Positions 19,459-45,016 of a stretch of 64,000 nucleotides of DNA are shown piece by piece. The DNA comes from Denitrovibrio sp. (GTDB lineage Bacteria > Chrysiogenota > Deferribacteres > Deferribacterales > Geovibrionaceae): the NCBI GenBank assembly GCA_002869145.1, contig PKTM01000027.1, forward strand, positions 134,243-198,242. Reading direction: 5' to 3'. The number at the start of each line of letters is the position of its first letter. Position 1 is the first letter of the stretch. The notes under the pieces were generated by a model, which was not told the DNA's origin, did not search any database, and saw only the letters and a program-made list of their open reading frames with translations. A program made the position numbers and the translations under genes.

Positions 19459-20799
19459 ATGAATAACTTTCAAAATATTGAGATAGTCCGAAAATTGAAA
19501 CTGAGTTATCAAAGAAGTGCCGTTGTTTTTACTTCATTGGTGTTAATAGTTTTCTCTGTTTTTATGACATACATTTCATACAATGCAAATATCAGCACTT
19601 ATAAATCAGAATCACTCAAAGTTATCAATAATTTTATAGACCAGGAACTGCATTTCGACATTAATGAGATTTTTGACAACCCTGAAAAGCATAAAAATCT
19701 GACAGACAGAATCGATCTTTTTATGAAAATGAGCAATCTGATAGATTTTCGTATATGGAACAGTGACTTTAGAACTGTATATTCTTATTCAGATAAATTA
19801 TCTGTTGGTAAATATTTCAGAGATAATGACGATTTAAGACATGTTTATGAAACCGGGGAAGTAGAAGTCAACATAGAAGAACCAGAAGATGCTGAAACTG
19901 AAGAGTTGAAGAGCTATGGTACTCTTTTTGAAATGTATTCTCCCATACTGCTTAATGGTGACATCGTTGGCGTGTTGGAAGTATACAGACTTTGGCCACC
20001 GCTCAATTTTTTTGACAAAGATAACTTGATGATATGTGTTCTCTCTATGCTGGTTCCTTTATTGCTTTATCTACTTATAAATAAACACTTTAACAAAGCC
20101 GCAGAAACGATAATAGGCTATCACAAGCACCTACAGGCTTCTTTCGATAAAACTACGGTCTCTTATATTGATACCATTATAAGCCTTACTAAGGCTCTGG
20201 AAATGAGGGATATGGAGACTGAAGGGCATTCGGAAAGGGTTGTTAATATGGCTTTTTTTATTGGGAAAAAACTAGGTTTAAAAAATGAAGAGCAGGGGAA
20301 GCTGACCATAGGTTCTTACCTGCATGACATTGGCAAGATAGGAGTACCTGATTCTATACTTTTAAAACCCGCCAAACTTGACCCGGAGGAGAGGCTGATC
20401 ATAGAAAAGCATGTTACATTTGGTTATAATATTATCAAAGATGTAAAATTCCTCTCTCTGGCTAAAGAGGTTATTTTGTATCATCACGAGAAATGGGATG
20501 GCACGGGGTATCCTGAAGGGCTGAAGGGGGAGGATATTCCGCTGAATGCCAGAATATTTGCTATTGTTGATGTTTTTGATGCGCTGGTCAGCGAACGTCC
20601 TTATAAGTCAGCATTTTCTATAGAAAAAGCTTTGGAGATTATAAAAGAAGGAAGAGGAACACATTTTGACCCTCAGGTGGCGGATGTTATTTTGAACATG
20701 ACTGAGGAAGAAGTGAGAGACATTAACAAAAACCTCAATAAAGACCAAGTAATATCAATTGTTTATAACTCTGTGGTTGGGCTTCTGGAAACAGCTTAA
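19459..20799 (+). CDS. HD-GYP domain c-di-GMP phosphodiesterase with N-terminal membrane/sensor region
   Basis: HD...HHEKWDGTGYP motif. N-terminal TM segments flank a periplasmic-like region. Confidence 0.8.
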   Translation: MNNFQNIEIVRKLKLSYQRSAVVFTSLVLIVFSVFMTYISYNANISTYKSESLKVINNFIDQELHFDINEIFDNPEKHKNLTDRIDLFMKMSNLIDFRIWNSDFRTVYSYSDKLSVGKYFRDNDDLRHVYETGEVEVNIEEPEDAETEELKSYGTLFEMYSPILLNGDIVGVLEVYRLWPPLNFFDKDNLMICVLSMLVPLLLYLLINKHFNKAAETIIGYHKHLQASFDKTTVSYIDTIISLTKALEMRDMETEGHSERVVNMAFFIGKKLGLKNEEQGKLTIGSYLHDIGKIGVPDSILLKPAKLDPEERLIIEKHVTFGYNIIKDVKFLSLAKEVILYHHEKWDGTGYPEGLKGEDIPLNARIFAIVDVFDALVSERPYKSAFSIEKALEIIKEGRGTHFDPQVADVILNMTEEEVRDINKNLNKDQVISIVYNSVVGLLETA

Positions 20800-20893
20800 A
20801 CATTCCTATGCTCTTTTTGTGCGGTTTAGTTTAATAGTAAATATTTTGTTTTCACCTGTTTTAAATAGCTCTGGTATAGGTGTGTTCTGAATG

Positions 20894-21310
20894 TTAATCG
20901 GCAGCGTTAATGTTTGCAATCATCCATTTGTAGATAGGAGATATTTGGCTGTACCCATGTTCTGACATAAGCTCTCTAAGTGCTTCCTGCCATAGGCTAA
21001 GCTGAATAGTCCAGTATTCTTGTTTAAACCCTCTGTATGTGTATACCTTAAAGACCCAAGCGACAGTTGCAGGGAGAACTTTTGTGTCAAATTCTTTGAT
21101 AAAAGCGTTAATAAATAGAGCGTGGTTTTTATGATTCTCAAGCATGGTGGCTTTATTGCCGGCGCCGATAATTTCTTTCAGGTTAGGAAGTGCCAGCATT
21201 TTAGTATTCACAAAATCAAGCGCAGCATTCATTACATCTTCATATTCTTTACTAGCTTTTTCATCAGGTTTTGAAAAATTTATTGGTGTGAATGTTATTT
21301 CTTCAGTCAT
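20894..21310 (-). CDS. hypothetical protein (possible partner of the adjacent B12-binding protein)
   Basis: 138-aa ORF, co-directional with the B12-binding gene and 24 bp downstream of it. No family recognised. Confidence 0.4.
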   Translation of the reverse strand: MTEEITFTPINFSKPDEKASKEYEDVMNAALDFVNTKMLALPNLKEIIGAGNKATMLENHKNHALFINAFIKEFDTKVLPATVAWVFKVYTYRGFKQEYWTIQLSLWQEALRELMSEHGYSQISPIYKWMIANINAAD

Positions 21311-21334
21311 TTAAACTCTCTCCAAAAGAATCGT

Positions 21335-22003
21335 TTAAGAGACACTGGCATACTCAGATAGCTGCTGCTTAAGTTCCATCAGTGAATAAACTACACTAAC
21401 ATTACTAAAGTCGTTGACAACTCCATACCCTCCCCAATGGAAAGCTTGTCCTCCAACGATAACAGGGGTTTCAGGATAGTTGCTGTTAATCTCTTCTAAG
21501 CATGTTCTTAAGTGTATGATATTGTAGTACATAGTAACAGATAAACATATTATGTCTGGGTTATTAATTTCGATAAAGTTCATTAGGTCATTAACAGGAA
21601 CGTTTGAGCCGAGGAAACTAGTATGCCATCCTAATATATCCATATAATCTGCTACCAACCTTGAACCTAGCTGATGTCTTTCTGAAGTGATGCCGCAAAT
21701 CACAGCTTTTTTTCCGTTTTTAGTTTTTTTTACAAAATGCGGATACAGGTAGCTGAGCAGGCTTTCAGTGATAGCGGTAGCCATATGTTCTACAGCGACA
21801 GAGATTTTGTTTTTCTGCCAAAGTTCGCCTATTTCATAAAGAGACATTTGGATAAAGTGCGTATAGATATCTATAATGTCATCGCCTGATTCTATGCGCT
21901 TAATGAGAATTTCGTAGCATTTTCCTCTGTTACCAGCCATTAAAAACGCTAAATAAGACTTGTAGTCATTCATCATATCGTTCTGCATAATAAATATTAT
22001 CAA
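21335..22003 (-). CDS. standalone cobalamin (AdoCbl)-binding domain protein, CarH/LitR/AerR-type, no DNA-binding domain
   Basis: IGELWQKNKISVAVEH is the W-x9-E-H motif. ITSERHQLGSRLV is the E/D-x-H-x-x-G lower-ligand motif. A Rossmann-like B12-binding segment follows. The start could be the internal Met at 21988. Confidence 0.6.
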   Translation of the reverse strand: MIIFIMQNDMMNDYKSYLAFLMAGNRGKCYEILIKRIESGDDIIDIYTHFIQMSLYEIGELWQKNKISVAVEHMATAITESLLSYLYPHFVKKTKNGKKAVICGITSERHQLGSRLVADYMDILGWHTSFLGSNVPVNDLMNFIEINNPDIICLSVTMYYNIIHLRTCLEEINSNYPETPVIVGGQAFHWGGYGVVNDFSNVSVVYSLMELKQQLSEYASVS

Positions 22004-22199
22004 ATGTGTACTTGTCAGTCAAGCTGCCAGTGTGGTTCAGTCGTTATATATAAACACGAAAAGAAATTTATGGAAATAAAGTGGAAAGCAACTTTTAGTT
22101 ACCTTAGTGGGTCTTGTGTAACCCAATGAAACATTCTCAAAACCTATAATATGTTATTCTTTTATTTAAGAGTGAAATATAATTAAGTATTATGTCCCC

Positions 22200-22559
22200 T
22201 TAATTTTGTGTAAGAGCATACTGATATATTGACTCATGGCTAATACGAATATCCTTATTCAGATTAAGCCACCCACTAATCTGCTCTGGACTCCAGTCTT
22301 CTTTCAGGTATTTTTCTACAAGTATCCATGTGGACGTTGGGATCCTTGGAGACACTTTGCCTTTTCTACGGCAAAGAGCTTTCCGGTGAGCCTGACGGGG
22401 CTGATATCCATTGCCACCTGTGTTCCTTTTAAGTTCCCTGCTTACAGTTGATTTATGAACTCGTAAGAGGTTTGCTATCTCAATCTGCGAATGTCCCATT
22501 TGTTTCAAAGCAGAAATCTGGTATCTTTGACTCTGAGTCAAGTGCGCATAGATTCTCAT
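22200..22559 (-). mobile_element. IS30-family transposase, N-terminal 119-aa remnant (DDE catalytic domain missing)
   Basis: HTH region ...SQIEIANLLRVHKSTVSRELKRN... and WSPEQISGWL are IS30-like. The ORF stops after about 120 aa and no catalytic domain follows. Confidence 0.75.
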
Positions 22560-22727
22560 TGGTGCTCCTTTTATGTGGTAATGGAAGCCGTGCCAATGCT
22601 AGCGCACTGGCTCGTCTATTACCAACTATAAAAGTTGCACTTAATTATTGAATTCGGGTATTAATTATAGAAATTGACTGACATATTGTGTAGACTATTT
22701 TCTGGTAGGCATCTAAAGAGGTGATTA

Positions 22728-23594
22728 GTGGGAGAAGAGTTTAAAAAATGGTGGTATTGGATACTGCTTGTTGCATCTGCATCAATAGTTCTGAGTAATA
22801 TAGAAAAACTAGATGGCTTTGAAAAACTTAATTCTATCGAGTTAATTTTTATAGTGTCTATTCTTTTGTTTCTATTACCGCTATTTTCAGAGTTTGAAAT
22901 TTTGGGAATAAAACTAAAAAAAGAACTTGAGAAAACAAAATCTGAGCTTTCAGGACAAATAGATCGAGCTTTTTTAACTTTAGAAAGTAAAATTTCTAAC
23001 ACTAACAATAATTATAATATAAATGGTTTTAACCTTCCAATAGAGGTTTTAATTGAATTATTTCAAAATCACTTTAAAAATGCTTCTGGCGTTGGCTCTT
23101 CTGAAGTAGTAACAACTTCTGCTAAAGAAGAAGAGGATAGTATCCATAATTCTATAACTCAAAGCACTGATAGCAGTATTGATGATATAAAAGGTATAAG
23201 TGAAAGGGCTGTTTATTTCTTTAAAGTACGGTATTCAATAGAAAATCTATTAACAAAAATATCAAGTGGTTTTTTGGTTAATAGAGTTTGGAATGTTTCA
23301 AAAATATTAGAAACTCTTGTGACTTTTAAGATAATTAGTGTGGAACAAGCGAGATTGATAAGAGAGATATTTTCTATTGTAAACAGAGGTATTCATGGCG
23401 AAACAGTTAGTGATGAATATTATAATTTTATTAGAGACAATTATCCTGACATTGAAAAATACCTTGCGGGTTTATCTGAGTCGGTACCTAGTAAGTTTAA
23501 AGACATTAATGCATGTTCAAGATGTAATAGTGTTGGACCTACAGTAAGGGAAGGCTACTGTATGAAATGTGGTTTTAATAATGATGACTGGTAG
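22728..23594 (+). CDS. hypothetical membrane-anchored protein with C-terminal zinc ribbon
   Basis: Two N-terminal TM helices, a coiled-coil, then CSRCNSVGPTVREGYCMKCG (C4 zinc ribbon). No family recognised. Confidence 0.5.
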   Translation: MGEEFKKWWYWILLVASASIVLSNIEKLDGFEKLNSIELIFIVSILLFLLPLFSEFEILGIKLKKELEKTKSELSGQIDRAFLTLESKISNTNNNYNINGFNLPIEVLIELFQNHFKNASGVGSSEVVTTSAKEEEDSIHNSITQSTDSSIDDIKGISERAVYFFKVRYSIENLLTKISSGFLVNRVWNVSKILETLVTFKIISVEQARLIREIFSIVNRGIHGETVSDEYYNFIRDNYPDIEKYLAGLSESVPSKFKDINACSRCNSVGPTVREGYCMKCGFNNDDW

Positions 23595-44053: not shown

Positions 44054-45016
44054 ATGAAAAAAGTAGCAGTAATGACAAGCGGCGGTGACTGCCCCGGCAT
44101 GAATGCAGCCATCAGAAGTATTGTTAGATCAGGTTTAGCAAACGGAATAGAGGTTTATGGTATAGAACAGGGATATAAAGGACTTATGGAAGGTAAAATT
44201 AACCTTCTTACCAGCAGAGAGGTTTCCAACACTATACAGCGTGGAGGAACATTTCTAAGGAGTGCCAGAAGCCTTGAGTTTAAAACAGAACAAGGACAGA
44301 GTAAAGCTGTTGATATACTCGAAAAAAATGGCATAGAAGGTCTTATTGTTATAGGCGGAGACGGCTCTCTTACCGGAGCTAAAATACTTCATGAAAATTA
44401 CGGTATAAATGTAATAGGGCTTCCCGGCTCAATAGATAACGACATTTATGGAACAAATATATCCATTGGTGTGGACACAGCGCTGAACACAATAGCCCAC
44501 GCAATAGATATGATAAATGAAACAGCCAGCTCCCATGACCGTACTTTTATCATAGAGGTAATGGGTCGCAACTGCGGCTATCTGGCGCTTATGTCTGCCA
44601 TAGCTACCGGAGCAGAGGCTGTTATCATCCCAGAGATAAAATATAATCTTGAAAAAATCATAGATAAAATAAAAATAAGATACGAAGAGGGGAAATCCAG
44701 AAGCATAGTGGTGGTGGCTGAAGGTGCTGGAAGTGCTACTGATATTGGCAAAGCCTTTCAGCTTATAGGCGGTTTTGAAACCCGAATAACTGTTCTTGGT
44801 CACCTTCAGCGTGGAGGCGGCCCTACTGTTTTTGACAGGATACTTGCTACACGTATGGGGTCTGCTGCTATAGATGGTCTTATTGCAGGTCACTCAGGAG
44901 TCATGACAGCTCTTGCCGGCAGAGAGATATCTTATGTTGATCTGGACGTAGTTCTGTCAAATACCAGACAGCTTGACCCAAAACTTATGGAAATAGCGGA
45001 GGATCTGAGTCTGTAA
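44054..45016 (+). CDS. pfkA: ATP-dependent 6-phosphofructokinase
   Basis: MTSGGDCPGMNAAIR, GGDGS and MGRNCGYLAL motifs. Confidence 0.9.
   Translation: MKKVAVMTSGGDCPGMNAAIRSIVRSGLANGIEVYGIEQGYKGLMEGKINLLTSREVSNTIQRGGTFLRSARSLEFKTEQGQSKAVDILEKNGIEGLIVIGGDGSLTGAKILHENYGINVIGLPGSIDNDIYGTNISIGVDTALNTIAHAIDMINETASSHDRTFIIEVMGRNCGYLALMSAIATGAEAVIIPEIKYNLEKIIDKIKIRYEEGKSRSIVVVAEGAGSATDIGKAFQLIGGFETRITVLGHLQRGGGPTVFDRILATRMGSAAIDGLIAGHSGVMTALAGREISYVDLDVVLSNTRQLDPKLMEIAEDLSL

What the first reader, a model, noticed from the sequence alone, without database searches (positions are those of the whole stretch)
20894..22003. Standalone CarH-type AdoCbl photoreceptor domain with a small partner gene, no DNA-binding domain
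The 222-aa protein has the two hallmark motifs of light-sensing AdoCbl-binding domains: W-x9-E-H (IGELWQKNKISVAVEH) in the helical bundle, and E/D-x-H-x-x-G (SERHQLG) in the Rossmann-like B12-binding segment. It lacks any MerR or other HTH domain, like the short AerR/PpaA-type antirepressors that work through protein-protein interaction. A 138-aa gene of unknown function follows on the same strand. It could be the output partner. Such a module is unexpected in a genome otherwise built around ferredoxin-based anaerobic metabolism. A PduO-type adenosyltransferase gene at 45016, which makes AdoCbl, is also in the window.
Basis: partly seen in the sequence, partly recalled or inferred. Interest (0 to 1): 0.58.

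Follow-up and report, generated by a model that had tools for sequence, protein, structure and literature searches.

The report
Split B12–photoglobin light-sensor gene pair

Summary
[quoted passage not shown] It has W62-x9-E72-H73 and E108-x-H110-x-x-G113, no DNA-binding domain, and a 138-aa ORF (20894-21310) follows 24 nt downstream.

The interpretation needs one correction. The 138-aa protein is not an unknown output partner. It is a photoglobin, the bilin-type globin that is fused to the B12 domain in photocobilins (SasPcob, PDB 8J2W). The evidence:
- AF2 model: pLDDT 93.
- hhalign to canonical photoglobins: 94.9 %.
- Many natural fusions join this same globin subfamily to the same B12 domain.

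The B12 protein's best solved relatives are photocobilins (E 6e-19), ahead of MetH, CarH and AerR.

The family occurs in at least 586 species genomes, mostly anaerobes. In 56 of 60 well-flanked loci a dedicated histidine kinase sits beside it. The window has no such kinase.

In this globin subfamily a conserved Asn (N59) replaces the biliverdin-anchoring Asp. Bilin binding is therefore uncertain.

Verdict: a new member of a known kind (standalone photoglobin next to a B12 sensor gene, Schneider et al. 2021). It is an unusual kinase-less copy, possibly acquired horizontally. Interest is moderate to low.

The parts
21335..22003 (-). Stand-alone cobalamin-binding sensor protein: a four-helix-bundle B12-binding_2 domain plus a Rossmann B12-binding domain. 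The longest ORF is 222 aa from TTG 22003. The likely true start is ATG 21976 (213 aa, as in the public gene call) or ATG 21988. Key residues in 222-aa numbering: G59xxW62, E72-H73, E108-x-H110-x-x-G113, G132xxxP136.
   Evidence: Pfam PF02607 and PF02310. PDB best hits are photocobilins 8J2W/8J2X at 6e-19. The signature residues are invariant in 46 homologs. The public gene call is P0002, 213 aa.
20894..21310 (-). Stand-alone photoglobin: a non-haem globin of the phycobiliprotein-like type, 138 aa, deposited as NCBI PLX66455.1 'hypothetical protein'. Subfamily signature: M56-x-E58-N59-H60-x-N62-H63, then W85, Y90, R93-G94-F95, Y99, W107, P125-x-Y127-x-W129.
21311..21334 (-). 24-nt spacer between the two genes, holding a GGAGAG Shine-Dalgarno sequence 7 nt before the photoglobin ATG. 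No terminator-like site lies in the region, so the two genes probably form one operon.
   Evidence: Read directly from the sequence. Zero terminator-like sites in 20600-22800.
21994..22022 (-). Promoter-like site TTGACT-17-TAATAT with a TG extension, directly upstream of or overlapping the 5' end of the B12 ORF. If it is functional, the TTG 22003 start cannot be real and the mRNA would have almost no leader. This is a weak consensus match only.
   Evidence: Ten such sites were found in the region against 7.1 +/- 2.5 in shuffles, so the site is not significant on its own.

Best explanation
The two genes encode a split photocobilin-type sensor. The 222-aa protein binds adenosylcobalamin base-off/His-on through H110. 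It holds the adenosyl group under W62 and E72-H73, as in CarH and the photocobilins. The 138-aa photoglobin docks non-covalently onto the corrin edge of this protein. That reproduces the photoglobin/B12 hub which related proteins build as a single polypeptide.

Light (green, through AdoCbl) breaks the Co-C bond. The E72-H73 helix then shifts and the oligomeric or interaction state changes. The signal passes to a partner by protein-protein contact. In relatives that partner is a dedicated cytoplasmic histidine kinase encoded next door, followed by a response regulator. In this Denitrovibrio locus the kinase is absent, so the output is an unlinked partner. Candidates, without specific evidence, are the neighbouring c-di-GMP enzymes or a kinase elsewhere in the genome.

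What is shown:
- the domain identities, the signature residues and the globin fold;
- homology of the 138-aa protein to photoglobins;
- conserved gene pairing, and fusion of exactly these two families;
- absence of the kinase from the 64-kb window.

What is inferred: AdoCbl binding, physical complex formation, light as the signal, and the nature of the output. Whether this photoglobin binds a bilin is doubtful, because a conserved Asn (N59) replaces the bilin-anchoring Asp.
For: B12 half:
- Pfam domains.
- Best PDB relatives are experimentally light-responsive B12 domains.
- W62/E72/H73/H110/G113/G132/P136 are invariant in 46 homologs. These match three of the four SignatureFinder elements, read in PMC11796333.
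- The B12 half of a modelled natural fusion (35 % identical to the window protein) superposes on 8J2W at 2.1 A and on 8JBS.

Globin half:
- AF2 pLDDT 93.
- Phycobiliprotein and smURFP are the top Foldseek hits.
- hhalign 94.9 %, E 4.7e-8 to canonical photoglobins. W85 aligns with SasPcob Trp296, and R93-G94 aligns with the R-G/H that follows it.
- No His on helix 4 (residues 78-92), hence no proximal haem ligand.

Coupling of the two:
- 398 clusters of this globin family were found.
- The hits of about 370 aa are globin-B12 fusions: five of five full-length hits tested by Pfam, plus two truncated hits.
- P0049 matches both window proteins, at 6e-22 and 2e-40.
- The AF2 model of P0049 has pTM 0.88 over 368 aa, which implies a defined inter-domain packing.
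- The globin gene lies beside the B12 gene in 38 of 60 well-flanked loci from many phyla.
- In L026 that slot holds a haem-oxygenase-photoglobin fusion.

Published support:
- Stand-alone photoglobins are 'almost always' adjacent to B12-binding genes, and the AF2 hub geometry is conserved (PMC8717448).
- Photocobilins are light-responsive and can act in trans on a diguanylate cyclase (PMC10979010).
Against: - No biochemical data exist for this subfamily or for any split pair.
- The bilin-anchoring Asp (SasPcob D270, the 'CXQD' motif) is replaced by N59, and the Cys position is Met. In AbPcob the equivalent change, Asp to His, lowers biliverdin occupancy to about 20 %.
- Hosts of the family are mostly strict anaerobes. 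Canonical O2-dependent haem oxygenase, and light itself, may be scarce for them.
- The G of the 'GxxH' signature element is Ser here, and Asn in most of the family.
- The usual kinase partner is missing, so the module could be incomplete.
Confidence: 0.72

Rival explanations
1. Non-photic sensor. The B12-domain/photoglobin pair in these anaerobes reports something other than light, for example cobamide/AdoCbl availability, redox state or O2, or a tetrapyrrole other than biliverdin. The Asn-type globin would then act as a ligand-binding or corrin-capping subunit.
For: The family is concentrated in strict anaerobes, including methanogens and sulfate reducers. The bilin-anchoring Asp and Cys are both replaced, while N59, H60 and H63 are invariant in 43 fusions. 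That points to a conserved but different ligand chemistry. Only loci with a canonical photoglobin showed a fused haem oxygenase (L026).
Against: The adenosyl-pocket residues (W-x9-EH), which distinguish light-responsive B12 domains from enzyme B12 domains, are invariant (PMC11796333). Every characterised protein with this signature is a photoreceptor. AbPcob lacks the Asp too and still responds to light. Many sediment and mat anaerobes do see light.
Confidence: 0.15
2. Decaying remnant. The pair is what is left of a three-gene B12-kinase-photoglobin module, brought in by horizontal transfer and truncated by IS activity. It no longer signals.
For: 56 of 60 well-flanked relatives have the partner kinase and the window has none. 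An IS30-type transposase N-terminal fragment lies directly upstream (22200-22559). So do an AT-rich stretch of about 30 % GC with two ORFs that have no hits, and a tRNA-Leu gene. The closest homolog outside this Denitrovibrio population is only 45-46 % identical.
Against: Both ORFs are intact and keep every invariant or near-invariant family residue. The same pair is present in two further assemblies, at 100 % and 99 % identity. There is no kinase pseudogene: only 95 bp lie between the photoglobin stop and the convergent HD-GYP stop. Stand-alone photocobilins act in trans without a linked effector.
Confidence: 0.08
3. One reading: an AerR/PpaA-like antirepressor whose 138-aa neighbour is the output (target) protein.
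For: The protein is a stand-alone B12 domain without a DNA-binding domain. AerR has the same fold (Foldseek on the fusion model, 2.6e-8).
Against: By sequence AerR is a marginal hit (E 0.8), against 6e-19 for photocobilins. The neighbour is a sensory globin that is fused to the B12 domain in many relatives. It is not a transcription factor of the CrtJ/PpsR type. Relatives signal through a histidine kinase.
Confidence: 0.03
4. Corrinoid protein of a methyltransferase system (MtbC/MtaC/MttC-like), as some automated annotations of family members state.
For: JGI names several homologs 'methanogenic corrinoid protein MtbC1'. NCBIfam TIGR02370 gives a weak hit at 2.1e-11.
Against: The TIGR02370 score of 43.6 is far below the cut-off of 215.3, and the equally weak CarH model scores the same. 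No methyltransferase gene is adjacent, either here or in 80 related loci, where the neighbours are kinase, photoglobin and response regulator. The W-x9-EH adenosyl pocket is invariant.
Confidence: 0.02

Closest known systems
Photocobilins (SasPcob, PDB 8J2W/8J2X; AbPcob, 8J2Y; Zhang et al. 2024, PMC10979010)
   Different: The two domains are separate gene products here. The natural fusions of this subfamily run globin-then-B12, whereas SasPcob runs B12-then-globin. The biliverdin-anchoring Asp270 is Asn (N59), which resembles AbPcob's His more than SasPcob. The host is an anaerobic Deferribacterota member rather than an actinobacterium. Chromophore binding is untested.
Photoglobin family and its B12-coupled operons (Schneider et al. 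2021, PMC8717448)
   Same: It is a stand-alone non-haem globin adjacent to a B12-binding_2 + B12-binding gene, the arrangement that paper reports as near-universal for stand-alone photoglobins. Profile-profile homology is 94.9 %. In relatives the pair is embedded in two-component signalling.
   Different: It belongs to a divergent subfamily with M-x-[D/E/N]-N-H-x-N-H in place of C-x-Q-D. It gets no Pfam hit and only E = 0.46 to smURFP in a PDB profile search. In this window no kinase or response regulator is linked on the same strand. Whether the paper's set of 5975 genes included this subfamily could not be checked, because its supplements are not held.
CarH / LitR (Thermus thermophilus CarH, PDB 5C8A/5C8D)
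   Same: The four-helix-bundle plus Rossmann AdoCbl-binding module is shared, as are W-x9-EH and E-x-H-x-x-G.
   Different: There is no MerR DNA-binding domain. Gln63 (Glu in most of the family) replaces the His that forms the bis-His light state. Sequence similarity is modest (2e-6).
[quoted passage not shown] 2023, PMC10151467)
   Same: These are separate globin genes associated with B12-binding protein genes, in the clade that also contains photoglobins. BBAG-2 was shown to bind biliverdin.
   Different: Those globins carry an RGMC motif and sit with haem oxygenase or pre-PcyA genes. The window has neither the motif nor any detectable bilin-biosynthesis gene.

Membership tests
Light-responsive cobalamin-binding domain (CarH-type CBD; SignatureFinder signature) | B12-binding_2 four-helix bundle followed by a B12-binding Rossmann domain | tested here: met
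   PF02607 (8.8e-12) and PF02310 (5.2e-13), both above the gathering cut-offs.
Light-responsive cobalamin-binding domain (CarH-type CBD; SignatureFinder signature) | GxxW ... EH adenosyl-pocket motif (TtCarH W131, E141, H142) | tested here: met
   G59-E-L-W62 and E72-H73, with W-x9-EH spacing. All are invariant in 46 homologs. The motif definition is from PMC11796333.
Light-responsive cobalamin-binding domain (CarH-type CBD; SignatureFinder signature) | GxxH lower-axial His motif (TtCarH H177) and GxxxP | tested here: inconclusive
   H110 and G132xxxP136 are invariant. The G of GxxH is Ser107 here; across the family it is N33/G5/D3/S2 of 46. The E/D-x-H-x-x-G form of the motif is met.
Light-responsive cobalamin-binding domain (CarH-type CBD; SignatureFinder signature) | Binds AdoCbl and undergoes Co-C photolysis | not testable with these tools
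   Needs UV-vis spectroscopy of the reconstituted protein.
CarH/LitR transcription factors proper | N-terminal MerR-type DNA-binding domain | tested here: not met
   No HTH or MerR hit in Pfam. The NCBIfam CarH model scores 43.5 against a cut-off of 400 and covers only the B12 part.
Photocobilin | B12 sensor domain and photoglobin domain in one polypeptide | tested here: not met
   There are two ORFs separated by a stop codon and 24 nt. Fusions of the same two subfamilies exist elsewhere.
Photocobilin | Globin domain structurally equivalent to the SasPcob biliverdin-binding domain, including Trp296 | tested here: met
Photocobilin | Biliverdin-anchoring Asp (SasPcob Asp270) | tested here: not met
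   The aligned residue is Asn59, present in 69 of 74. The neighbouring position 58 is acidic (Glu here, Asp in 40 of 74), so a one-residue register shift cannot be excluded without a 3-D superposition. AbPcob has His at this position.
Photocobilin | Binds biliverdin and extends AdoCbl photolysis to red light | not testable with these tools
   Requires chromophore titration and 660-nm illumination.
Photoglobin (Schneider et al. 2021) | Globin fold without a proximal His; related to phycobiliproteins | tested here: met
   The AF2 model is all-helical, pLDDT 93. Allophycocyanin and smURFP are the top Foldseek hits. Helix 4 (78-92) has no His, and the L80-equivalent position is Tyr90.
Photoglobin (Schneider et al. 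2021) | Profile-level sequence homology to canonical photoglobins | tested here: met
   hhalign probability 94.9 %, E 4.7e-8, over 108 columns (reproduced). The canonical profile itself hits 8J2W at 2e-35 and phycobiliproteins at 1e-5.
Photoglobin (Schneider et al. 2021) | Conserved Asp on helix 3 (D49; 'CXQD' motif) | tested here: not met
   The window reads M56-L-E-N59, and the family consensus is M-x-D-N. The paper says the Asp is present in 'the majority', not all, of the family.
Photoglobin (Schneider et al. 2021) | Fused to, or encoded adjacent to, a B12-binding_2 + B12-binding protein | tested here: met
   It sits 24 nt downstream of the B12 gene. The same pairing occurs in 38 of 60 well-flanked related loci.
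AerR/PpaA antirepressors | Specific sequence relationship to AerR, and a CrtJ/PpsR partner | tested here: not met
   AerR 7TE2 scores E = 0.8. The neighbour is a globin, not a PpsR-type regulator.
Methyltransferase corrinoid proteins (MtaC/MtbC/MttC/MtgC) | Score above the family cut-offs, and an adjacent cognate methyltransferase | tested here: not met
   The best NCBIfam score is 43.6 against a cut-off of 215.3. No methyltransferase is in the neighbourhood, here or in related loci.

The most novel reading that the evidence does not exclude
The Asn-type photoglobin subfamily (M-x-D/E-N-H-x-N-H, with N59, H60 and H63 invariant in fusions) is confined largely to strict anaerobes. The most novel reading is that it does not bind biliverdin at all. 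It would either bind a different ligand, such as an anaerobically made linear tetrapyrrole, or use its invariant histidines to contact or ligate the cobalamin after Co-C cleavage. That would give a B12-based sensor tuned to anoxic habitats. The kinase-less Denitrovibrio pair would then be a free-standing version that acts purely through protein-protein contacts, for instance on c-di-GMP enzymes.
Probability: 0.2. Interest if true: 0.7.

Novelty: new member of a known kind. Interest (0 to 1): 0.36.

Why it matters
B12-based photoreceptors and photocobilins are a young field. Only fused photocobilins have been characterised, and they come from aerobic actinobacteria.

This locus, with the several hundred related loci recovered here, shows that the same two-chromophore hub is commonly encoded as two separate small proteins in anaerobes. 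It is normally wired to a dedicated histidine kinase.

A naturally split pair of 213 + 138 aa would be a convenient minimal system for three questions:
- how the globin docks on the corrin;
- whether the Asn-for-Asp subfamily still binds a bilin;
- what strict anaerobes, which lack O2-dependent haem oxygenase, use as the second chromophore.

It is also a possible small, genetically separable optogenetic part. For annotation, it corrects a 'hypothetical protein' (PLX66455.1). It also corrects the misleading 'methanogenic corrinoid protein MtbC1' labels on family members.

Tried and rejected
1. Direct sequence searches with the 138-aa protein found nothing useful: Pfam, NCBIfam and PDB phmmer and the word-indexed homolog search (one near-identical hit). 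Only the exhaustive HMMER scan and structure prediction opened it up.
2. A family profile searched against PDB sequences gave only a marginal smURFP hit (E 0.46).
3. I first assumed that the hits of about 370 aa were kinases carrying an N-terminal photoglobin. Pfam showed they are photoglobin-B12 fusions. The neighbouring kinases have a different, unannotated N-terminal domain that is not photoglobin-like (hhalign probability 0.2 %).
4. The search for related loci with the globin alignment failed because the alignment is too divergent. The B12 alignment was used instead.
The natural fusion P0049 was modelled instead. The tools do not return coordinates, and the domain order is permuted relative to SasPcob. 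So the inter-domain geometry could be judged only from pTM.
6. The supplements of the photoglobin paper are not held. Whether PLX66455.1 or its subfamily is in that paper's list is unknown.
7. I tested a specific link between the pair and the nearby REC-PAS-GGDEF gene, since L015 has that architecture directly after its module. Identity is only 29 %, so the similarity is generic.
8. PADLOC found nothing for the two AT-rich neighbouring ORFs.
9. Rfam found no riboswitch, only a tRNA.
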